60,236 nucleotides of DNA from a virus (taxonomy: Duplodnaviria > Caudoviricetes): IMG/VR virus record IMGVR_UViG_3300017714_002351, positions 1 through 60,236 of that record. One strand, 5' to 3'. Shown here piece by piece: positions 5,944-49,830 of this stretch (position 1 is its first letter; each line of letters opens with the position of its first letter). The position numbers and the translations under genes are program-made. The notes beneath the pieces were generated by a model, which worked only from the letters and a program-made list of their open reading frames with translations, did not search any database and was not told the origin of the DNA.

Positions 5944-5962
5944 ATCTAAGGAGGGTAACAAA

Positions 5963-6082
5963 ATGTTTAAAAATAAAAAACTTTGGATTGCTATTATAGT
6001 AGCAGTCGTTGTATTAGGTTACATGGCTTACACAGGAAACATGATCTCTTGGTCACCTGCTGAAGCTCCAGTAACTGAGTAA
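5963..6082 (+). CDS. 39-aa single-TM protein (not in ORF track)
   Basis: AAGGAGGG RBS; MFKNKKLWIAIIVAVVVLGYMAYTGNMISWSPAEAPVTE. Confidence 0.75.
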   Translation: MFKNKKLWIAIIVAVVVLGYMAYTGNMISWSPAEAPVTE

Positions 6083-6090
6083 CTTACTCA

Positions 6091-6124
6091 AAAAAATAGG
6101 GCGGTATTTCTATCGCCCTATATT
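6091..6124. terminator. Terminator between convergent genes
   Basis: A-run, ATAGGGCGGTA-TTTC-TATCGCCCTAT hairpin. Confidence 0.75.
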
Positions 6125-6139
6125 CGATTTACACAAAAA
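6118..6139 (+). repeat. 22-nt exact direct repeat, copy 2
   Basis: Identical to 5102..5123. Confidence 0.9.
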
Positions 6140-6140
6140 T

Positions 6141-6194
6141 CTATTTCTTTTTACCCGAAACCCAATCGTTTTCTTCGTTAGTATAAGGCCACAT
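6141..6194 (-). CDS. 17-aa micro-protein MWPYTNEENDWVSGKKK (not in ORF track)
   Basis: ATG 1 nt after stop of upstream gene; ends just before terminator. Confidence 0.55.
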   Translation of the reverse strand: MWPYTNEENDWVSGKKK

Positions 6195-6195
6195 A

Positions 6196-6447
6196 TTACG
6201 CCGCCTTACCTTTCCAGAACGCAACCGAGTGTCCTCTTAGATAATGTTTCGCAGGATCATAACTTGACTTGATCTTTTTAAGTTTTTCTAATCTCACTAA
6301 AGCCTTTTCTTTTCTATTTTGAAGTTTTAACTTCTCTAGTAGTAGAGCCTTTGCTTCATTGTGGTAACCTTGTCTTGATAGTTCCGCGGCCGCTCTCGCA
6401 TAACCGGCAACCTCAAACCAATTTAGTAAACGTTTAATAATAAGCAT
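6196..6447 (-). CDS. Small hypothetical protein (GYARAAAELSRQGY motif)
   Basis: AAGGA RBS; member of small-protein operon. Confidence 0.75.
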   Translation of the reverse strand: MLIIKRLLNWFEVAGYARAAAELSRQGYHNEAKALLLEKLKLQNRKEKALVRLEKLKKIKSSYDPAKHYLRGHSVAFWKGKAA

Positions 6448-6462
6448 TGTTCAGATCCTTTC

Positions 6463-6648
6463 CTAATATCTAACCTGTTTGATTCTGTGACCAAACGGGC
6501 CAACTTCGATCTGCCTGCGATCGAGTTGTTTAATGCGACGTTCGAGATCAACATGATCGACAGAGCGAGACAAATAGTCCTCTTCCCATCGTTGTTGAGT
6601 CCAAACCATCGACTTGAGTTTTTTAATAATTGTACGAAGTACTTGCAT
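6463..6648 (-). CDS. Small protein, DUF3563-like
   Basis: EEDYLSRSVDHVDLERRIKQLDR resembles the DUF3563 YLxxSxDxxDLExRxRxL pattern; AAGGAGG RBS. Confidence 0.65.
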   Translation of the reverse strand: MQVLRTIIKKLKSMVWTQQRWEEDYLSRSVDHVDLERRIKQLDRRQIEVGPFGHRIKQVRY

Positions 6649-6867
6649 TTAAGCTACCTCCTTCGCACTATCTATTGGGGTGTGTTTATATGTTCCGTAA
6701 TTCGGATTCGGCTTCTGCCCGTTAGTAGCAATCATATGTGCTAAGGCAAATTCCCAATCGTCCTTATATTCAGTTCTGGCCCATTTCTCAAACTCAGCAT
6801 GGCGTCGGCTTTCAAAGCCAGACCCATGATTCATCCAAGACACTAGACCACTCCAAAAGTGTGTCAT
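6649..6867 (-). CDS. Small hypothetical protein (WARTEYKDDW motif)
   Basis: AGGAG RBS; first gene after structured leader. Confidence 0.75.
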   Translation of the reverse strand: MTHFWSGLVSWMNHGSGFESRRHAEFEKWARTEYKDDWEFALAHMIATNGQKPNPNYGTYKHTPIDSAKEVA

Positions 6868-6874
6868 TGTTTTC

Positions 6875-7060
6875 TCCTATGTTTTGGATGCTTAAGGAAA
6901 GCAATACCCCGAGTCTTTTCTCGGCGTCAGTAGTCTTTGCTACCGTCAATGTCGCTTTGGACATCGTCATTTGCTATTTAAGGAGTGCTCTCTACTCCCT
7001 GGTCAATCCCAGTGTATGTGTGTGTCATCGGAAAAACTTAGAAAGGTCTTTGCGTCGACA
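6875..7060 (-). ncRNA. Candidate structured leader RNA with three tandem covarying hairpin modules
   Basis: Minus strand TGACG-ATGTC-CAAAGC-GACAT-TGACG-GTAG-CAAAGA-CTAC-TGACG-CCGAG-AAAAGA-CTCGG (6909..6969), plus further hairpins; downstream of a TATAAATA late promoter. Confidence 0.65.
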
Positions 7061-7064
7061 TTCG

Positions 7065-7072
7065 TATTTATA
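7065..7072 (-). promoter_or_regulatory. T4-type late promoter TATAAATA
   Basis: Exact TATAAATA on minus strand ahead of the structured leader. Confidence 0.7.
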
Positions 7073-7249
7073 ATATTAGTACAAAACTCGGGGCCTTAAT
7101 GGAGCAGATCTCCTGTACTTTTTTTGCATACCGTCGTTGCATTTTTGTTGACACAGGATTGTAATCAAATTGTAACAAAATTTTTCTTGACTTTAAGTAA
7201 ATAAGAGTGTAAATTAATATTTGAATACGAACTTCAGACAGGAGTATAT

Positions 7250-8209
7250 GTGGAAGTATTAACATTATGGATGGCAATAGGCTTTTTATTCGCGGCTTAC
7301 TCTGTCATAGCAAACGATTCCGTACAGACCCTTGGTACGTGGATTGCATCCAACCATGAACGATATGACTGGAAGATCATGTGGGGAGCCGCAAGTGCTG
7401 TCCTGCTATGGGCTCTATGGTATGGTTGGTATACTAATGGAGGGGATATTTCATATGGACGACTGAACAGGATACCGTGGCAGGAAATACAATGGTATCA
7501 TGCGGCCGCTCCAGGATTACTATTAATATTAACAAGACTAGGTGTTCCAGTAAGTACATCATTTTTAGTATTAAGTGCTTTCGCTAGTACATTTGTATTA
7601 GAGAAGATGCTTATGAAAAGCATGATGGGTTATGCAGTAGCAGGTGTATCAGCTTATGCTATATGGTACGGTATTACTAAAGTGATGGACGAGTCTGCTT
7701 CAGTTAAAGAAAGTCATAAAGCATATTGGCGAGTAGGACAATGGATTACCACAGGAGTATTGTGGTGGACTTGGTTAAGTCATGACATGGCCAACATAGC
7801 AGTTTACCTACCTAGACAAGTTCCTATAGATATGATGATAATGGTATCATTAATATTTGTACTAGGGCTAGGTTATATGTTTAGGGAACGTGGCGGTAAG
7901 ATACAACAGATAGTCATAGAGAAACATAATACAAGATATGTTAGAAGTGCTTGTCTTATAGACTTGTTTTACTTTGTAATACTTTTATTCTTTAAAGAGA
8001 TTAACGATATACCTATGTCAACTACTTGGGTCTTTGTAGGATTGTTAACAGGACGTGAACTTGCTATTGCTACATTTACAGACAAAACAAAGTTCAAAGG
8101 TGTGTTTCCTTTTATTGCAAAAGACTTCTTTAAGATGATGATTGGCTTAGGTGCATCAGTAGGAATAGTTTTAGCAATACATTATATAATAGTTCCAAAC
8201 GGTTGGTAA
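7250..8209 (+). CDS. Multi-TM protein, PiT/PHO4-like phosphate transporter candidate
   Basis: Many TM helices; two related motifs IANDSVQ and SHDMAN resembling the duplicated PiT GANDVAN signature; LGVPVSTS and IPMSTT. Confidence 0.55.
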   Translation: MEVLTLWMAIGFLFAAYSVIANDSVQTLGTWIASNHERYDWKIMWGAASAVLLWALWYGWYTNGGDISYGRLNRIPWQEIQWYHAAAPGLLLILTRLGVPVSTSFLVLSAFASTFVLEKMLMKSMMGYAVAGVSAYAIWYGITKVMDESASVKESHKAYWRVGQWITTGVLWWTWLSHDMANIAVYLPRQVPIDMMIMVSLIFVLGLGYMFRERGGKIQQIVIEKHNTRYVRSACLIDLFYFVILLFFKEINDIPMSTTWVFVGLLTGRELAIATFTDKTKFKGVFPFIAKDFFKMMIGLGASVGIVLAIHYIIVPNGW

Positions 8210-28994: not shown

Positions 28995-29222
28995 ATGAGT
29001 GAGCGAGTCGTTGGCAAACTGAAATGGTTTGACGCAAAAAAAGGTTACGGGTTTATAACTCCCGATGATGGCGGACAAGATGTGTTCGTACATATATCTG
29101 CCTTTGAAGGTGCACAGATAACTAACATTTCGAATAAGATGCTACTAGAATATGAACTTGTTGATAACAGGGGCCGAATGATAGCAGGTAACCTTGTTCG
29201 TCCTGATAACTTCAACAGATAA
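28995..29222 (+). CDS. cspA: Cold-shock domain protein
   Basis: GKLKWFDAKKGYGFI (RNP1), DVFVHISA (RNP2). Confidence 0.93.
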   Translation: MSERVVGKLKWFDAKKGYGFITPDDGGQDVFVHISAFEGAQITNISNKMLLEYELVDNRGRMIAGNLVRPDNFNR

Positions 29223-29671: not shown

Positions 29672-29739
29672 GGTAAATCCTTTGACATTAGTTATGCCAG
29701 AAGAGTAATATATGCACTTAAATAGGTTAAATATAGGTG

Positions 29740-30055
29740 TAATTGATGACAGCAACGTATGTCACATGAACAGGACCCGGGGGCGGTACCCGGCGCCTCC
29801 ACCATAAACACATTTACCGAGTGTGCTTATGATGGGGGCGAAATAGGATCGACTGGCTTGTTAAGGTTGAACGAGATTACCGGGATGTAAGCTCCGTTAA
29901 CGCGAACAAACGTTATAGATGCAAACGATAATGCACTATCCAACGTAACTTTTGTAGATTTTTCTGCACCAGTTACTGCGGTGAATGAGGATTTTGCTCT
30001 AGCGGCATAATCGCTCGGGGTTGGCAACTTACCTAGCAACAGAAAAGTTGCGCCT
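29740..30055 (+). ncRNA. ssrA: Two-piece (circularly permuted) tmRNA; ends approximate
   Basis: T-arm and CGCCTCC-A-CCA end at 29804 precede GGGGGCGAAATAGGATCGAC at 29834; acceptor stem has G3:U70; tag frame 29921..30010 ANDN...FALAA. Confidence 0.93.
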
Positions 30056-37008: not shown

Positions 37009-37410
37009 ATGGAACCTGTAATCAATTTAATCACTCCACCTGATAAACTGTATAACGGTAATTTAAGTTTTCTTTTGGTAAGTCCTAGTGACGATAAGAA
37101 AGAACAGTTTAATCAAATGGCCAAAAGGATTGGCCAGGATCTAAATGTTTACTTGTTTGATAAAACCGAGACAGATGTGCCTTGGTTATTAGACGTAGGT
37201 CAAGAAGTTGATCATATTATATTAGACATTGACAATATCCCACAAGAGTATCAATGGCTTATTGGATACTTTTTATCCTTTAACAAAACTTTTTACTTGA
37301 CAAGTGCCGAACAAATGTCGTATAATGTAATTAACACTAGACGGATTTATGACGTTGGACAAATTGCAGAGGAGAACGATAGCTTTGTCAAATTTCAAGG
37401 AAAGACCTAA
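37009..37410 (+). CDS. Hypothetical protein
   Basis: INLITPPDKL; ATG 5 nt after TAAGTA. Confidence 0.7.
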   Translation: MEPVINLITPPDKLYNGNLSFLLVSPSDDKKEQFNQMAKRIGQDLNVYLFDKTETDVPWLLDVGQEVDHIILDIDNIPQEYQWLIGYFLSFNKTFYLTSAEQMSYNVINTRRIYDVGQIAEENDSFVKFQGKT

Positions 37411-37621
37411 AAGTGGGTTGACCGTTCAAGTTCGTAACAACGACTTTTTCGGTGCATTAAGAAAATTTAAAAAACGAGTTTCGCAGGATGGTATTTTGAT
37501 GGAGTACAAAGACAAACGTTATTATCAAAAACCTAGCGAGAAACGAGCAAAGGCTAAGGCGGCTGGTATTGCTCGACAAAGAAAAGAAGATCGTCGTCGT
37601 AGATTAGAGGAAGGATATTAA
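37385..37621 (+). CDS. rpsU: Ribosomal protein bS21, copy 1 (start uncertain, TTG after GAGGAG)
   Basis: VQVRNNDFFGALRKFKKRV...YYQKPSEKR. Confidence 0.85.
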   Translation: MSNFKERPKSGLTVQVRNNDFFGALRKFKKRVSQDGILMEYKDKRYYQKPSEKRAKAKAAGIARQRKEDRRRRLEEGY

Positions 37622-40527: not shown

Positions 40528-40836
40528 ATGATAAGTAATGTTATGGACGTACAAATAGACGAAAAAATTAAGCAACAAATCTTAGAGCCAGGAATGTTCA
40601 AAGTTGTTTTCTTAAATGACGACCAAACACCAATGGACTTCGTGATTGAGTGCCTTATCGGAATATTTAAACATACAGACGAAACGGCAAGAGACCTTAC
40701 TGTAAAAATACATGAAGAAGGGTCAGCGATAGTTGGAGTATTCACTTTTGAAATAGCAGAACAAAAAGGAATCGAAACTACGCAGTTGGCTCGCTCAAAC
40801 GGCTTTCCATTACAAGTGAAAGTTGAGAAAGAATGA
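40528..40836 (+). CDS. clpS: Clp protease N-end-rule adaptor
   Basis: KVVFLNDDQTPMDFVI...IHEEGSAIVG...EIAEQK...GFPL. Confidence 0.93.
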   Translation: MISNVMDVQIDEKIKQQILEPGMFKVVFLNDDQTPMDFVIECLIGIFKHTDETARDLTVKIHEEGSAIVGVFTFEIAEQKGIETTQLARSNGFPLQVKVEKE

Positions 40837-41378
40837 GCCTTAAAGAATTAACATACGAACATCATCGTAATGCAGAAAGACAACAGTTTGTAAAAGTACT
40901 AATGAGCGGACATATAGATCCGAAACTATATGCTACCTTTATGTACAATCAGCATCAACAATATAATATTTTAGAAGTATGTTCCATGTCACATGGATTA
41001 ATGAACGGTCTAATGGATATTAGACGAGCTCCAAACATCTGGGCAGACTATGAAGAACTGTGGGAAGACAAAGACAATCCACCTGAGCTTTTATCTGTTA
41101 CTAAAGAATATGCAGATCATATCATGAGCATAAAAGATGATGAAAAGAAATTGTTCGCACACATTTATACTAGGCACATGGGTGACCTAAGTGGTGGACA
41201 GATGATCCGTAAAAAGATTCCAGGAAGTGGCACACTATATAATTTCGAAAACGGTCCAGCTCTTAAAGAATTAATTAGAGAACGTTTAGATGATAGTATG
41301 GCTGATGAGGCAAAGATTTGTTTTGACTTTGCTACTAAAACTTTTCAGGAATTGATGGATGTCAAACTCACAAGTTAA
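40833..41378 (+). CDS. Heme oxygenase (biliverdin-producing, phage HemO-like)
   Basis: LKELTYEHHRNAE (axial His), AHIYTRHMGDLSGGQMI. Confidence 0.9.
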   Translation: MSLKELTYEHHRNAERQQFVKVLMSGHIDPKLYATFMYNQHQQYNILEVCSMSHGLMNGLMDIRRAPNIWADYEELWEDKDNPPELLSVTKEYADHIMSIKDDEKKLFAHIYTRHMGDLSGGQMIRKKIPGSGTLYNFENGPALKELIRERLDDSMADEAKICFDFATKTFQELMDVKLTS

Positions 41379-42855
41379 AAAAATTGTTATAGTTGGAGGA
41401 GGTAGTGCAGGTTGGCTCACAGCCGCTTATGCCCTATACAATTTACCCAACACACAAATCACACTAATAGAAAGTCCTAACATACCTATAGTAGGAGTAG
41501 GTGAAGCTACTATACTTGGCTTCGACCATTACCTAACTGACTGTGGTATACCAACCGAACTGTGGACAAAGGAATGTGATGCAACTATTAAACTAGGCAC
41601 ATACTTTCCTAACTGGAGAGATGATGGTAAAAACATTTGGCAACCTTTTTACTTTCCAATTGAAAAAGCACAAACAGGTAACTGGCATGATGTAATAGAC
41701 TTATGTCGAGATGCTAATGTTCCTTTTGAAGATTACGAAAAGTGGACTGCTTGGTATGACATCAGTGTTAAGGATAAGAAGATTGCAGGTAACACAACTG
41801 CCTGTGGTAGTGAAGCTCATGTAGGTTATCATTTAGATGCAGTTAAACTAGCAAACTTCTTAAGCGAATATCTTAATAAGAAGTATCCAAGGTTAAAACA
41901 TATTAAAGCACACATAGATAAGCCTGTTATAAAAGATGGAAACATTGAACACGTTGTATTAGAGAACGATGAAATAGTCACTGGAGACTTCTTTGTTGAC
42001 TGTACAGGATTTAAAAGATTACTTTCAAATGCACTAGGCAACAGTAAATGGGTTGACAGAAGCCATATGTTGTTTACAAATGCCGCAGTGGCATCACAGA
42101 TTAGTTATGAAACAGAAGATGAACCGCAGGTACCTTATGTAACTGCACAGGCTTGTGACCACGGATGGATATGGAAAACTCCTGTTAAAGATAGAATAGG
42201 TAGTGGACTTTGTTACAACAGTGATATAACAACTAAACAAGAAGCAGAAGATTACTTTGTACAACATTGGGGAGAACATAGATTAAGAACAGGTAAGTTT
42301 AATCATGTACCTTTCAAACCAGAGTACAATGCAAACAACTGGCGTGGCAACTGTTTTAGTGTAGGACTAGCAAGTGGATTTATTGAACCACTCGAGTCAA
42401 CAGGACTTGCACTATTAGTAATAGGTAGTTCAGCACTACACTATATGAAAAAAGGTTACTATGAACAGGCAGACGTAGATAGATTTAACGAGGACATGAG
42501 TAACGTGTACGAAGATAGCATGGGCTTTGTTGCACTACATTATTTTAGCAATCCAAGACAGAGTAAGTTTTGGAGACACGTTGAAGAAAACTTTAAAGAA
42601 ACTAAAAAGATGGAAGATCTGTGTACAAACTATGCAAGAAACTTTACTCCCACAGTAGATGAACAGTTCTTTCCACGCAACACAGAAATATTTCAAGACA
42701 TCAATTGGAAGCTATGGTTAAACACCGTAGGCATTAAAACTGCTACTGCCAATTTAGGTGAAGCAGAGAGCTTAGACCTTTTAAATAGAATGAAGGAAGA
42801 AAACAAGAAAGCTTCTTATCCGGGCTTAACAAACAGACAATGGAGTAACAGGTGA
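41359..42855 (+). CDS. Flavin-dependent tryptophan-halogenase-like protein
   Basis: GGGSAGW, GVGEAT, ATIKLG (catalytic Lys), DCTGF, GWIWKTP, GFIEPLESTG. Confidence 0.88.
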   Translation: MSNSQVKKIVIVGGGSAGWLTAAYALYNLPNTQITLIESPNIPIVGVGEATILGFDHYLTDCGIPTELWTKECDATIKLGTYFPNWRDDGKNIWQPFYFPIEKAQTGNWHDVIDLCRDANVPFEDYEKWTAWYDISVKDKKIAGNTTACGSEAHVGYHLDAVKLANFLSEYLNKKYPRLKHIKAHIDKPVIKDGNIEHVVLENDEIVTGDFFVDCTGFKRLLSNALGNSKWVDRSHMLFTNAAVASQISYETEDEPQVPYVTAQACDHGWIWKTPVKDRIGSGLCYNSDITTKQEAEDYFVQHWGEHRLRTGKFNHVPFKPEYNANNWRGNCFSVGLASGFIEPLESTGLALLVIGSSALHYMKKGYYEQADVDRFNEDMSNVYEDSMGFVALHYFSNPRQSKFWRHVEENFKETKKMEDLCTNYARNFTPTVDEQFFPRNTEIFQDINWKLWLNTVGIKTATANLGEAESLDLLNRMKEENKKASYPGLTNRQWSNR

Positions 42856-43553
42856 GCGAATCAATTATATGGGACACACTAATTAAAACCCAAGACGAGA
42901 TACTTGACATATTTGACAAGTATGCAGAAGAAACAGAAGAAAAGACCTTGAACAAGTTTAATCAGCCTGAGAACGGTTGGTTGAATAGAGTATGGGCAAA
43001 CAAGCACGTTCGAAGAGCTCACATTGACGTTGTTGATGTACGTGAACAAAAAGGTCTGTGGATGATGCACGTATGTTGCTTTCCAACACTAGACAATGGT
43101 GCACCTATATACGGCTTTGATGTTATCGCAGGCAAACGTAAGATGACTGGTGCCTTCCATGACTTTAGTGCATCAAGTGGCGGAGAAGATCATCCGTTGT
43201 GTGAATGGTACTTAGATGCTGTCAAAGATTTTATTCCTAGTAAGAAACGTGAATTACCTGAATGGGCAACAAACATATTCAGTCCAGGCATGATTGCCGC
43301 TGGTAACGTTGCTACAGAAGAAGAAGCACAGGCTATTTGTAAACTTGCAGTTGATAACTTAAAGGTATGGTTTGATAGTGTACCTGAATATGCAGGAGAA
43401 CAAACAGTAGAGTTTACTGCTGGTGCACAGGACTATTACTGTCATAATCAGCAACAGAACCCACATACACCACGTGTTATGAAGTCCTTAGGGCTTAACG
43501 AAGCAGACGTAGATGAATTTTGTACTAATGCCTTGTTTCCTAAAATAGCATAA
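42852..43553 (+). CDS. Ferredoxin-dependent bilin reductase (PcyA/PcyX type)
   Basis: RRAHIDV, MMHVCCFP, PIYGFDVI, RELPEWATNIFS, QDYYCHNQQQNPHTPRVM. Confidence 0.85.
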   Translation: MSESIIWDTLIKTQDEILDIFDKYAEETEEKTLNKFNQPENGWLNRVWANKHVRRAHIDVVDVREQKGLWMMHVCCFPTLDNGAPIYGFDVIAGKRKMTGAFHDFSASSGGEDHPLCEWYLDAVKDFIPSKKRELPEWATNIFSPGMIAAGNVATEEEAQAICKLAVDNLKVWFDSVPEYAGEQTVEFTAGAQDYYCHNQQQNPHTPRVMKSLGLNEADVDEFCTNALFPKIA

Positions 43554-46758: not shown

Positions 46759-47322
46759 ATGAAAAAAGTATACGAACAATATTCAGTTGATGAGAGGATA
46801 GAAGCAACTCTACATGATAATGACATTCATTACTTGAGTGGAGAGCTAGATAATGACAATATCTCCAAAGCAATCAAATGGATAGTATCAGCAAATCTTG
46901 TAAAAAGACCAAAACGTAAACTAACATTGTACGTGAATACAGTAGGTGGAGACCTATATGAAATGTTCGGACTGATCGATGTTATGAGAGATAGCTATCA
47001 TACTATTTCTACAGTAGGTATTGGAGCAGTAATGAGTGCTGGATTTTTGATATTTGCAAGTGGTAAACAAGGTGAAAGATATATCGGTAAGAACACAGGT
47101 ATAATGAACCATCAACACTCAGACACAATGGAATCTAAGATGCACGACATGAAAGCACAGATGAAAGAGAACAACAACTGTGAACAAAGATGTATGCAGA
47201 TATTAAGAGATGCAACTGGATACAGTTTAGCAGACGTTCGTAAAAAATTCAATAACCCATCAGACCAATACTTTACTGCCAAGCAGTTAATTGACTTAAA
47301 AGTCGCAGATCATATACTTTAA
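46759..47322 (+). CDS. clpP: ClpP-like serine protease subunit
   Basis: LYVNTVGG, GAVMSAG (Ser), MNHQ (His), DQYFTA (Asp), VADHI. Confidence 0.85.
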   Translation: MKKVYEQYSVDERIEATLHDNDIHYLSGELDNDNISKAIKWIVSANLVKRPKRKLTLYVNTVGGDLYEMFGLIDVMRDSYHTISTVGIGAVMSAGFLIFASGKQGERYIGKNTGIMNHQHSDTMESKMHDMKAQMKENNNCEQRCMQILRDATGYSLADVRKKFNNPSDQYFTAKQLIDLKVADHIL

Positions 47323-48388: not shown

Positions 48389-48583
48389 ATGGAAGTAATA
48401 GTTAGAAATAACAATGTTGAAAAAGCCCTTAGAGTTATGAAACGTAAAATGAAAAAAGAAGGTTTACTTTTAGAACTTAAGGAAAGAGCATACTACCAAA
48501 AGCCAAGTGAGAAAAAACGTTTGGCTAAAAAACGTGGTATCAAGAGAGCATTAAAGTTACAAAAAGAAAGAAACAGAATATAA
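48389..48583 (+). CDS. rpsU: Ribosomal protein bS21, copy 2
   Basis: MEVIVRNNNVEKALRVMKRKMKKEGLLLELKERAYYQKPSEKKR. Confidence 0.92.
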   Translation: MEVIVRNNNVEKALRVMKRKMKKEGLLLELKERAYYQKPSEKKRLAKKRGIKRALKLQKERNRI

Positions 48584-49332: not shown

Positions 49333-49555
49333 AAACTACGATTCTAAATGCACTATTACTTGCACCGATAATGACGTTGTTGCTGAAGCAGACGTTGATA
49401 GGTTTGAGGAAGGACAATTTGTTGAAGTGTTTATAGCACAGAACAAAATTAAGATGATGTACACTGGTAGAGTGTATGTTGGTAATAAGATGGGCATGGA
49501 ATTTACTACTCCTGGACCTAGAACTTTTAACATAAAGCAAGGAAGAGGTTTATGA
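49325..49555 (+). CDS. Small hypothetical protein
   Basis: YVGNKMGMEFT; operon position. Confidence 0.65.
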   Translation: MNKNYDSKCTITCTDNDVVAEADVDRFEEGQFVEVFIAQNKIKMMYTGRVYVGNKMGMEFTTPGPRTFNIKQGRGL

Positions 49556-49830
49556 GTTTAGATCAAATAGCAGAATTAAAAGGAATACCCACCAAGGATA
49601 CGTTAATCAAGTTACTGAAAGAGCAAACTGCTACAGTAACTTTTTTAAAACTTGATGGCGACGAACGTGTAATGACTTGTACCAAAGACCTAAGAGTTAT
49701 ACCAGAAGCTAATCACCCTAAGACAACCAAAGAAGCTCACGAGAAGAACATCACAGTATGGGACACTAATGCCAAAGGATATCGTTCCTTTGTGTATGAT
49801 AGAGTTAGAAAGGTTGTTATAAATGGGTAG
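49552..49830 (+). CDS. WYL_2/Sm-like SH3-fold protein
   Basis: VTFLKLDGDERVMTCT...VWDTNAKGYRSF. Confidence 0.7.
   Translation: MSLDQIAELKGIPTKDTLIKLLKEQTATVTFLKLDGDERVMTCTKDLRVIPEANHPKTTKEAHEKNITVWDTNAKGYRSFVYDRVRKVVING

What the first reader, a model, noticed from the sequence alone, without database searches (positions are those of the whole stretch)
6141..7072. Candidate new RNA system: tandem covarying hairpin array leading a four-gene small-protein operon
Seen: a TATAAATA promoter (7065..7072, minus) precedes about 190 nt of non-coding leader. It contains three consecutive modules UGACG-[stem]-MAAAGM-[stem']: ATGTC/CAAAGC/GACAT, GTAG/CAAAGA/CTAC and CCGAG/AAAAGA/CTCGG. The linker is invariant, the loops nearly so, and the stems differ in sequence yet pair perfectly, which indicates selection on RNA structure. 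A stemless copy GACG-CAAAGA sits at the predicted 5' end, with further hairpins (CTGG/CCAG, GGAGT/ACTCC, TGCTT/AAGCA). Downstream are 72-, 61- (DUF3563-like), 83- and 17-aa ORFs and a terminator. Inference: a multivalent protein-binding or processed RNA array, analogous in logic to alphaproteobacterial cuckoo sRNA/DUF1127 loci or CsrB-type sponges, perhaps bound by one of the small proteins. I do not recognise it as a named family.
Basis: partly seen in the sequence, partly recalled or inferred. Interest (0 to 1): 0.82.

Follow-up and report, generated by a model that had tools for sequence, protein, structure and literature searches.

The report
Structured leader RNA of marine phages
A previously undescribed, strongly conserved string of RNA hairpins sits in front of a late-expressed cluster of tiny protein genes in many uncultured ocean phages, and probably controls or stabilises that messenger RNA.

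Summary
On the minus strand, a T4-type late promoter (7065-7072) is followed by a ~190-nt leader with three tandem hairpins, then four small ORFs and a terminator. All four ORFs are conserved elsewhere. The leader matches no Rfam 15 family.

Homologous leaders occur in 57 distinct forms in IMG/VR contigs and in 77 of 80 fetched metagenome loci. None was found in 185,579 species genomes with the same exact pattern. A covariance model built without the window finds the window's leader once (74.3 bits). 16 of 24 modelled pairs show compensatory double changes; 92.7% of cells pair, against 29-50% in slid controls.

The conserved core is a chain of hairpins P1-P6. The UGACG "linker" supplies closing pairs of the stems. 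The tandem module varies from 0 to 2 copies, and the window has 2.

Every assessable leader precedes the same small-protein family. The operon then carries DUF3563 (31 of 41 loci) or DUF1127 (10 of 41).

RNA-library contigs from four studies cover the leader and operon.

Best reading: a new cis-acting structured 5' leader, probably a protein-binding platform. It resembles cuckoo/DUF1127 loci in logic but is not a member. Its function is untested.

The parts
7065..7072 (-). T4-type late promoter box TATAAATA
   Evidence: Read. The same box is TATAAATA in 48 of 57 distinct homologous leaders and a one- or two-base variant in the other 9 (the window and L004 rows there were cut at an internal look-alike). 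The consensus is as quoted in PMC9004378 methods.
7023..7060 (-). P1, 5'-terminal hairpin of the transcript.
   Evidence: MFE; core hairpin 7051-7032. Homologues have a 5' hairpin of unrelated sequence. It is predicted only and was not tested by covariation.
7013..7026 (-). CA-rich single-stranded stretch
   Evidence: Conserved as (A)CACA-N-ACAC in alignments A1 and A2. Unpaired in the MFE.
6999..7012 (-). P2 hairpin, loop GA-NN-GA
   Evidence: All 4 of its 4 pairs show double changes.
6980..7000 (-). P3 hairpin
   Evidence: 5 of 5 pairs show double changes in A3 and 4 of 5 in A7.
6947..6966 (-). P4a, the extra copy of the tandem module (7-bp stem, loop CAAAGC)
   Evidence: Present only in leaders with two modules. 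L044 shows a compensatory change.
6928..6945 (-). P4b, tandem module (6-bp stem, loop CAAAGA)
   Evidence: 5 of 5 modelled pairs of P4 show double changes.
6909..6924 (-). P5 hairpin (loop AAAAGA)
   Evidence: 2 of 5 pairs show double changes and 2 are invariant. The innermost pair is G.U in 34 sequences and G-C in 13.
6889..6903 (-). P6 hairpin next to the ribosome-binding site
   Evidence: The 3' arm is invariant. Pairing is kept in a second register in the variant class (my reading). There is no classical covariation.
6865..6878 (-). Shine-Dalgarno AGGAG (6878-6874) and the start codon of the first gene (6867-6865)
6649..6867 (-). Gene 1, 72 aa, an unnamed family (W-A-K-T-E-Y ... D-W ... 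A-Y motif)
   Evidence: It is the first gene after the leader in 56 of 56 complete cases. The family has 162 representative clusters, all from metagenomic sources among the 10 clusters looked up.
6463..6648 (-). Gene 2, 61 aa, DUF3563, pI 10.3
6196..6447 (-). Gene 3, 83 aa, basic (pI 10.3), an unnamed viral family
6141..6194 (-). Gene 4, conserved 17-aa micropeptide (M-W-P-Y-T-x-E-E motif)
   Evidence: Found by motif in 36 of 41 related loci with at least 900 nt downstream.
6089..6121 (-). Intrinsic terminator (hairpin plus T-run) that closes the operon
   Evidence: The same element follows the operon in L001 and L004.

Best explanation
This is a new, conserved, structured 5' untranslated leader of a late-transcribed small-protein operon in uncultured marine T4-like myophages.

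Anatomy. The RNA is a chain of independent hairpins. P1 sits at the 5' end and is followed by a CA-rich single strand, then P2 and P3. Next come zero to two copies of a short hairpin module with an A-rich loop, closed by C-G and G.U pairs and spaced by one A. P5 and P6 follow, and P6 abuts the ribosome-binding site.

Proposed mechanism (inferred, not shown). The hairpins, with their conserved loops and joining bases, form a platform for a sequence-specific RNA-binding protein that sets the translation and/or stability of the operon mRNA. The most economical candidates are the operon's own basic small proteins (DUF3563 or DUF1127, and the 83-aa protein), which would give feedback control.

My odds. 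The RNA is a real, selected structure read from this strand: about 0.95. It acts in cis on this mRNA through a bound protein: about 0.5.
For: Structure and covariation:
- Model R1 was built from 25 leaders that exclude the window. It finds exactly one site in the window, at 6865-7028(-), 74.3 bits, E 4.5e-18; the next hit has E 2.
- R1 finds one site in each of 57 of 57 leader loci and none in 8 loci that hold only distant DUF3563 relatives.
- On 56 distinct sequences, 92.7% of cells pair, against 29-50% when partners are slid. 16 of 24 pairs and 211 cells show changes on both sides, and 0 of 500 shuffles reach any measure.
- A metagenome set of 70 distinct sequences repeats this: 90.7% paired and 15 of 24 pairs with double changes.

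Strand:
- G.U pairs mark the sense strand. The innermost P5 pair is G.U in 34 sequences and G-C in 13.
- The module-closing G.U becomes A-U in L013, L062 and L109.

Position and linkage:
- The leader always lies between a TATAAATA-type box and the ribosome-binding site of the same gene family: 56 of 56 and 102 of 105.
- Of the 3 exceptions, two are family members with one motif substitution and one is a chance pattern hit.

Constraint:
- The P5-to-SD part is more conserved than the adjacent coding DNA. Median identity to the window is 78.5% against 67% over 54 comparisons.

Chain of hairpins rather than a compact fold:
- The top mutual-information pairs are the modelled helices, and no further helix appears.

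Transcription:
- Contigs from four RNA libraries of four studies cover 6187-7141.
- One contig spans 6269-7020, which joins the leader and the ORFs.
- One contig ends at 7059, about where a late promoter would start transcription.
- Contigs cannot prove a transcript.

Candidate binders:
- Genes 2 and 3 are basic, pI 10.3.
- In related loci gene 2 is replaced by DUF1127. One member of that family, CcaF1, binds hairpin RNAs encoded beside its own gene (passages of PMC8034643).
Against: - No binding, processing or regulatory effect has been measured.
- The window itself has DUF3563, not DUF1127. The two families show no profile similarity (hhalign probability 0.26%, E 0.23).
- DUF3563 is found in none of the papers searched.
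- DUF1127 proteins also act by protein-protein contact with PhoR (abstract of PMC12501420). Salmonella YjiS pulled down no RNA (passage of PMC11707872).
- The copy number of the module varies from 0 to 2, including an exact tandem duplicate in L058, L060 and L069. Multivalency is therefore not required.
- No similar hairpins occur elsewhere in the window beyond chance: 12 against 10.5 +/- 3.2 expected. No wider regulon is visible in this 60-kb fragment.
- The alignments used for the pair counts were fitted to the model, which favours the structure.
Confidence: 0.5

Rival explanations
1. The leader is cut off the mRNA and accumulates as one or several stable small RNAs. These act in trans as a decoy for a host or phage RNA-binding protein or as base-pairing regulators, in the way CcsR/cuckoo RNAs derive from UTRs of DUF1127 genes.
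For: - The modules are tandem and of variable copy number, with conserved loops.
- CcsR RNAs arise from the 3' UTR in Rhodobacter, apparently from the 5' UTR in Sinorhizobium, and are bound by the neighbouring DUF1127 protein (passages of PMC8034643).
- In three RNA runs an identical leader (6884-7059, no differences) is joined to a different downstream sequence. The leader is therefore shared among strains as a unit.
Against: - No terminator or U-run follows P6, and the ribosome-binding site follows within about 15 nt.
- An RNA-library contig runs through the leader and the ORFs.
- Contigs cannot show processing or abundance.
- The loops carry no anti-Shine-Dalgarno motif.
- The strongest conservation is next to the ribosome-binding site, which fits a cis role.
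Confidence: 0.2
2. The leader is a passive stabiliser and translation enhancer. A 5'-terminal hairpin and a row of stable hairpins protect the late mRNA from 5'-end-dependent decay. The CA-rich single strand and an open ribosome-binding site promote initiation. No dedicated regulator is involved.
For: - A 5'-terminal hairpin of unrelated sequence is predicted in the homologues.
- A conserved CA-rich unpaired stretch is present.
- The hairpins are independent, with no long-range pairs.
- The module number is free to vary.
Against: - Loops and joining bases are conserved in sequence, with many invariant columns in A2 outside the stems.
- The P5-to-SD stretch is more conserved than the coding DNA.
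- Pure stability elements need structure, not sequence.
Confidence: 0.2
3. The leader is a riboswitch or other ligand-sensing RNA that controls translation of the small-protein operon.
For: - The leader is strongly conserved, with covarying stems, next to a ribosome-binding site.
- Marine phages of this kind are reported to carry riboswitches (passages of PMC9004378).
Against: - No multi-helix junction or pseudoknot emerges from the covariation scan.
- There is no conserved alternative pairing that hides the ribosome-binding site. The predicted unpaired probability of the SD ranges from 0.04 to 0.85 (median 0.40) over 55 leaders.
- Whole hairpins come and go.
- No Rfam riboswitch matches.
Confidence: 0.07
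4. The inverted repeats act at the DNA level, as operators or iterons for a DNA-binding protein, and the RNA structure is incidental.
For: - The short inverted repeats have constant flanks.
- A separate conserved palindrome lies further upstream of the promoter.
Against: - The stem sequences differ freely while staying complementary. Operators conserve sequence.
- G.U pairs would be mismatches on the other strand and in duplex DNA.
- The element always lies downstream of the promoter and in the sense orientation of the gene.
Confidence: 0.03

Closest known systems
Cuckoo / CcsR (NfeR, Rfam ar14) RNAs in DUF1127 'CIN1' loci of Alphaproteobacteria
   Same: - Both are repeated hairpin units with a conserved loop motif.
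- Both are co-transcribed in the 5' or 3' UTR of a gene for a tiny basic protein.
- In both, copy number and arrangement vary between lineages.
- In 10 of 41 related phage loci the operon behind the leader does encode a Pfam-positive DUF1127 protein.
- CcaF1 binds its neighbouring RNAs (passages of PMC8034643).
   Different: - The loop motif differs: the anti-Shine-Dalgarno CCUCCUCCC in cuckoo RNAs against A-rich AAA / MAAAGM loops here.
- No Rfam match was found at E up to 10.
- The element here is viral, not cellular, and stands behind a late phage promoter.
- The window's own operon has DUF3563, which shows no detectable relation to DUF1127.
- Processing into sRNAs is not shown.
Hairpin-plus-arginine-rich-peptide pairs of phage antitermination (lambdoid N with boxB; recalled, not tested)
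   Same: Short hairpins with purine/A-rich loops lie just downstream of a phage promoter, and small, very basic proteins are encoded by the same phage.
   Different: - No N-like protein or nut-type context was identified.
- The loops here are tri- or hexaloops.
- The element abuts a ribosome-binding site.
- The comparison rests on memory only.
CsrB/RsmZ-type protein-sponge RNAs (recalled)
   Same: Several similar hairpins lie in a row with a repeated loop motif.
   Different: - The loops of the window's type contain a single G, so they cannot hold the CsrA core, which needs two.
- The RNA is an mRNA leader and not a free-standing sRNA.
- No Rfam match was found.
Orphan structured leaders of marine bacteria and phages in Rfam (the motif classes of the 2010 comparative-genomics survey, PMC2864571, seen in a search listing only)
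   Same: It is a conserved, covarying RNA upstream of short ORFs and is known only from marine sequence.
   Different: None of the 4227 Rfam 15 models reaches E 10 on the leader of the window or of L011. None reaches its gathering score in seven further loci.

Membership tests
Cuckoo / CcsR RNA (Rfam ar14 group) | Hairpin loops carry the CCUCCUCCC anti-Shine-Dalgarno motif (PMC8034643) | tested here: not met
   The loops are CAAAGC, CAAAGA and AAAAGA in the window. They are AAA, AAG or MAAAGM in all 57 distinct leaders.
Cuckoo / CcsR RNA (Rfam ar14 group) | Match to the Rfam covariance model | tested here: not met
   No such family appears among the matches at E up to 10 on the window's leader region or on L011.
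Cuckoo / CcsR RNA (Rfam ar14 group) | Adjacency to a DUF1127 ORF (CIN1 context) | tested here: inconclusive
   Not met in the window, where gene 2 is DUF3563. Met in 10 of 41 related loci by motif. Pfam DUF1127 scores of 35.7-57.8 bits, above the 23.3 cut-off, were found in 4 of 4 loci tested.
Any described RNA family (Rfam 15) | Covariance-model match at or near the gathering score | tested here: not met
   Only the tmRNA and tRNAs reach gathering scores in the window.
T4-type late transcription unit | TATAAATA box a few bases upstream of the transcript start | tested here: met
   The box lies at 7072-7065 and is exact in 48 of 57 distinct homologues. An RNA-library contig ends at 7059 (a weak hint). 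The consensus is as quoted in PMC9004378. The promoter's activity was not tested.
DUF3563 (Pfam PF12086), protein of gene 2 | Score above Pfam's gathering cut-off | tested here: met
   28.1 bits against 26.9. The L014 homologue scores 39.1 bits.
Riboswitch | Conserved ligand-binding fold (junction or pseudoknot) coupled to an expression platform | tested here: not met
   No pairs beyond the five local helices were found. Predicted accessibility of the ribosome-binding site is inconsistent, 0.04-0.85. Ligand binding itself cannot be tested here.
CsrA-sponge RNA | CsrA core motif repeated in hairpin loops (recalled) | tested here: not met
   The loops of the window's type hold one G only.
ANTAR-type dual-hairpin target (recalled) | A cognate ANTAR-domain regulator, and overlap of the second hairpin with a terminator | tested here: not met
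   No ANTAR domain was found among the 82 window ORFs scanned at E up to 1e-4. No U-run follows the hairpins. The window is only about 16% of the genome, so the regulator could lie elsewhere.

The most novel reading that the evidence does not exclude
The A-loop hairpins are the cognate recognition elements of the phage's DUF3563/DUF1127-type basic micro-proteins. Leader and proteins would then form a self-contained RNA-protein module, a viral counterpart of CcaF1-CcsR. It would be made late in infection, would autoregulate itself, and through the released proteins or hairpin RNAs would retune host RNA turnover or PhoR-type signalling. This would give DUF3563 its first function. It would also give both DUF families their first defined RNA motif.
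Probability: 0.2. Interest if true: 0.8.

Novelty: new member of a known kind. Interest (0 to 1): 0.62.

Why it matters
Distribution. The RNA is abundant in ocean data. RNA libraries of several studies hold the window's stretch, 10 of the 21 listed runs being on record as RNA. It is absent from Rfam and from 50,697 cultured phage records. It is therefore a well-supported new phage RNA family that could be deposited.

Protein link. The leader is tied to an operon of micro-proteins that has no function assigned. That operon includes two widespread domains of unknown function. One of them, DUF1127, is currently debated as an RNA binder or a PhoR binder.

A testable system. The leader offers a short natural RNA with 3-5 similar hairpins and candidate partners encoded 200 nt away. 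If the proteins bind it, this would define an RNA motif for these families. It would also show that phages carry their own UTR-RNA and small-protein regulatory modules.

Tried and rejected
- Plain MAFFT plus RNAalifold on 24 full leaders (A1) gave 6 pairs only. Module insertions misalign the rows. I replaced this with a model built from 25 single-module leaders.
- A kissing interaction between the P2 and P3 loops fits the commonest sequences, but the loops do not co-vary in other clades (my reading). No such pair appears.
- One isolated column pair (50/110 of A3) co-varies, but it tracks the clade split and has no stacked neighbour.
- An anti-SD role for the P6 loop was rejected. The loop variants in about a quarter of the leaders lose the complementarity.
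- A leader peptide starting at the ATG inside the CA-rich stretch was rejected. That ATG is absent outside the window's clade.
- I looked for a regulon of similar hairpins elsewhere in the window. The count was 12 against 10.5 +/- 3.2 in shuffles, so there is no excess.
- DUF3563 and DUF1127 show no detectable homology.
- The ESM Atlas look-up for the 83-aa protein gave only viral 'hypothetical' clusters with scores of 0.87 or less.
- The AlphaFold model of gene 1 has three helices at mean pLDDT 67.9. That is too small and too uncertain for a meaningful fold search, and none was run.
- blastn of the locus against cultured phages gave no match. tblastn of genes 1 and 2 gave no match either.
- Of the pattern hits in cellular genomes, 0 of 5 are confirmed by the model.
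- In the RNA runs, the flanks 5956-6147 and 7172-7363 carry no contig in any of the four runs. Summed depth is higher over the leader than over the ORFs. Contig cover and depth cannot be used as evidence of transcript ends or levels, and the leader is shared by several strains.
- Supplementary tables of the papers could not be opened. Lists of marine sRNA groups from early metatranscriptome studies, if any hold this RNA, were not checked. My searches for such a description found none.
Full report
WHAT IS THERE

All features below are read on the minus strand.
- An exact TATAAATA lies at 7072-7065.
- About 190 nt without a plausible ORF follow.
- A Shine-Dalgarno AGGAG lies at 6878-6874.
- ORFs of 72, 61, 83 and 17 aa follow, tightly packed.
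- A G+C-rich hairpin with a T-run lies at 6121-6089.

They are the only three matches to TGACG-N4-5-MAAAGM in 60 kb. The chance expectation is 0.24, and 0 of 100 shuffles give three. The leader folds far better than shuffles (z = -4.14, 0 of 200).

IT IS A FAMILY, AND THE STEMS CO-VARY

Finding relatives:
- Protein-guided searches of IMG/VR brought 5 and 26 related loci.
- A DNA pattern taken from the most conserved part brought 94 stretches, of which 80 were listed.
- After removing identical copies, 57 distinct leaders remained.

The model. I built covariance model R1 from 25 leaders of the commonest type. The window and its clade were not among them.
- R1 finds exactly one site in the window: 6865-7028, 74.3 bits, E 4.5e-18. 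The next hit has E 2.
- R1 finds one site in each of the 57 leader loci. It finds none in 8 loci that carry only distant DUF3563 relatives.

Pair counts:
- On the resulting alignment, 92.7% of cells form standard pairs, against 29-50% when the partners are slid by 1-3 columns.
- 16 of 24 pairs and 211 cells show changes on both sides. 0 of 500 column shuffles reach any of the five measures.
- P2, P3 and P4 co-vary at every modelled pair in that alignment. P5 co-varies at two, and two of its pairs are invariant.
- P6 is conserved rather than co-varying. In a variant class it keeps pairing in a shifted register, which the model misaligns.
- An independent harvest from JGI metagenomes gave at least 118 stretches, and 80 were fetched. 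R1 confirmed 77 of them. The other three are unrelated G+C-rich sequence.
- That set repeats the result on 70 distinct rows: 90.7% paired and 15 of 24 pairs with double changes.
- Both alignments were fitted to the model, which favours the structure. The compensatory changes are nevertheless plain in the raw sequences.

Which strand folds:
- G.U pairs show that the sense strand is the one that folds. The innermost P5 pair is G.U in 34 sequences and G-C in 13.
- The closing G.U of the module is replaced by A-U in L013, L062 and L109.

CORRECTED ANATOMY

The order of elements is:
1. P1, a 5'-terminal hairpin of unrelated sequence in different clades. It is predicted only.
2. A CA-rich single strand.
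3. P2, with a GA-NN-GA loop.
4. P3.
5. A conserved joining stretch.
6. The tandem module.
7. P5.
8. GG-UAU.
9. P6.
10. About 15 nt.
11. The ribosome-binding site.

Its CG pairs with the UG of the next linker. Each module is therefore a 6-8-bp hairpin closed by C-G and G.U, and neighbours are separated by one A.

There are two flavours:
- The window's type has hexaloops MAAAGM throughout.
- The majority type has an AAA triloop in P4 and an AAG/GGAAGUU loop in P5.

The number of modules between P3 and P5 is not fixed. By my reading of the parse it is 0 in 5 leaders, 1 in 40 and 2 in 12 of 57. An automatic count miscounted four of them. The window has two. L058, L060 and L069 carry an exact tandem duplicate. 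The array is thus an expandable part of a larger conserved leader and not its core.

A mutual-information scan found no pairs beyond the five local helices. The RNA is a chain of hairpins, not a compact multi-junction fold.

CONTEXT

The phage:
- The window is a virus record, estimated 16% complete.
- It has T4-like tail and baseplate genes.
- Its NrdA is 70% identical to those of Synechococcus myophages.
- It carries a two-piece alpha-type tmRNA and four tRNAs.
- It also carries two S21 genes, ClpP and ClpS, haem oxygenase, a bilin reductase, a cold-shock-domain gene and a WYL_2 Sm-like gene.
- Two-piece tmRNAs of this kind are reported for marine myophages of SAR11 and OM43. TATAAAT is the T4-like late promoter query used in that paper (passages of PMC9004378).
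- The box is exact in 48 of 57 homologues.

The first gene:
- The gene directly behind the leader is always the same unnamed family. This holds in 56 of 56 complete cases.
- It holds in 102 of 105 cases in the enlarged set. The three exceptions are two members with a motif substitution and one chance hit.
- The family has 162 representative clusters among 1.84 billion proteins.
- In the 10 clusters I looked up it comes only from metagenomic sources and carries no name beyond 'hypothetical protein'.
- Neither it nor the DUF3563 gene has a tblastn match in 50,697 cultured phage records.
- No true leader was found in one genome each of 185,579 prokaryote species with the exact pattern: 5 hits, 0 confirmed.

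The rest of the operon:
- Of 41 loci with at least 900 nt downstream, 31 have a DUF3563-type gene and 10 have a DUF1127-type gene. None has both or neither, by motif.
- Pfam confirmed DUF1127 in 4 of 4 loci tested. It confirmed DUF3563 in the window and in L014, but not in L078.
- The two families show no profile similarity.
- The 83-aa family, a 34-aa membrane peptide and the micropeptide also recur. The micropeptide equals the window's 17-aa ORF and is present in 36 of 41 loci.
- Genes 2 and 3 of the window are basic, pI 10.3.

EXPRESSION

- 21 public runs from 9 studies hold the stretch, and 10 of them are on record as RNA.
- I laid contigs of four RNA libraries from four studies. They cover 6187-7141.
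- One contig runs from 6269 to 7020, across the leader and the ORFs.
- One contig ends at 7059, close to where a late promoter at 7072-7065 should start.
- In three runs a contig with a leader identical over 6884-7059 continues into a different downstream sequence. The leader is therefore shared by co-occurring strains with different first genes or gene starts.
- Contigs cannot show strand, ends or levels, and DNA carry-over is possible. I therefore count this only as consistent with transcription.

COMPARISON WITH WHAT IS KNOWN

- No Rfam 15 family reaches E 10 on the window's leader or on L011's. None reaches its gathering score in seven further loci.
- The nearest system in logic is the cuckoo/CcsR group. 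These are repeated hairpin RNAs in the 5' or 3' UTR of a DUF1127 gene, and the DUF1127 protein CcaF1 binds them (passages of PMC8034643).
- The present RNA fails the defining tests for membership, namely the loop motif and the model match. The window has DUF3563, not DUF1127.
- DUF1127 proteins are also reported to act on the kinase PhoR by protein contact (abstract of PMC12501420). Salmonella YjiS pulled down no RNA (passage of PMC11707872). RNA binding by the phage proteins therefore cannot be assumed.
- DUF3563 occurs in none of the papers searched.
- Literature searches for a description of this leader found none. Supplementary lists of marine sRNAs could not be opened.

MECHANISM

Shown:
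- The RNA is a selected structure on the sense strand.
- Its position is fixed between a late-promoter box and the ribosome-binding site of one gene family.
- Loops, joining bases and the P5-to-SD part are conserved in sequence beyond the coding DNA. Median identity is 78.5% against 67%.

Inferred: conservation of unpaired bases in a chain of simple hairpins points to recognition by a protein. The position next to the ribosome-binding site points to control of translation or stability in cis. The basic proteins encoded just downstream are the obvious candidates.

Odds for the mechanism:
- Cis-acting protein-bound platform: about 0.5.
- UTR-derived trans-acting or decoy RNA: 0.2.
- Passive stabiliser or enhancer: 0.2.
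- Riboswitch: 0.07. There is no junction, pseudoknot or consistent occlusion of the ribosome-binding site.
- DNA-level element: 0.03.

VERDICT

The finding is a new structured leader RNA family of uncultured marine T4-like phages, with an expandable tandem-hairpin module. It is tied to an operon of micro-proteins that includes DUF3563 or DUF1127. Its function is open but directly testable.

Noticed in passing
window about 7095-7165 (minus strand), and 60-110 nt upstream of the late-promoter box in most related loci: A second conserved non-coding element lies upstream of the promoter. It consists of a GTCAAC...GTTGAC inverted repeat followed by a CATGC-AAAAATA-GCA(TG) palindrome. In many loci a TTGA-type -35-like hexamer with a -10-like hexamer sits just before TATAAATA. 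This may be an early promoter or operator, or signals for the divergent gene. The window keeps only part of it.
   Followed up: partly
window 6884-7059 in RNA runs X2, X11 and X13: Contigs with a leader identical to the window's over 176 nt continue into a different sequence just before the ribosome-binding site. This suggests recombination or module exchange at the 3' end of the leader among co-occurring phage strains.
   Followed up: no
L058, L060, L069: These loci carry an exact tandem duplication of one 19-nt hairpin module, which looks like a recent expansion of the array.
   Followed up: partly
L065, L087, L096, L113: Here the DUF1127 domain is fused to the C-terminal half of the 83-aa family (Y-E-P-G-D-H-Y ... 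W-K-G-K-A-H-A). The N-terminal half (A-R-A-A-A-E-L) stands as a separate protein. This is domain shuffling among the micro-proteins of the operon.
   Followed up: no
L078:9867-10322: A 151-aa plastocyanin/azurin-type copper protein (Pfam Copper-bind, 59.2 bits) is inserted among the small ORFs behind a module-less leader.
   Followed up: no
window 7250-8209 (+): The divergently transcribed neighbour is a 319-aa multi-pass hydrophobic protein. It has only a weak sub-threshold match to the PHO4 phosphate-transporter family (15.9 bits against a 33.7 cut-off). This is of interest only because DUF1127 proteins are reported to act on PhoR.
   Followed up: no
window 29678-30054, 37349-37618, 48389-48580, 28995-29219, 49552-49827: The window holds a two-piece alpha-type tmRNA (128.6 bits), two ribosomal protein S21 genes, a cold-shock-domain protein and a WYL_2 Sm-like protein. 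Together these make an unusually rich set of translation and RNA-related genes for a 60-kb phage fragment.
   Followed up: no
window 40833-43550 and 46759-47319: These stretches encode haem oxygenase, tryptophan halogenase, a ferredoxin-dependent bilin reductase, ClpS and ClpP, which look like auxiliary metabolic genes. CheckV completeness of 16% implies a very large genome.
   Followed up: no
L025-L027, upstream of distant DUF3563-like ORFs: These loci have a different, short leader directly after a capsid-like gene end, with no match to model R1. The small-protein genes therefore also occur without this RNA in more distant phages.
   Followed up: partly
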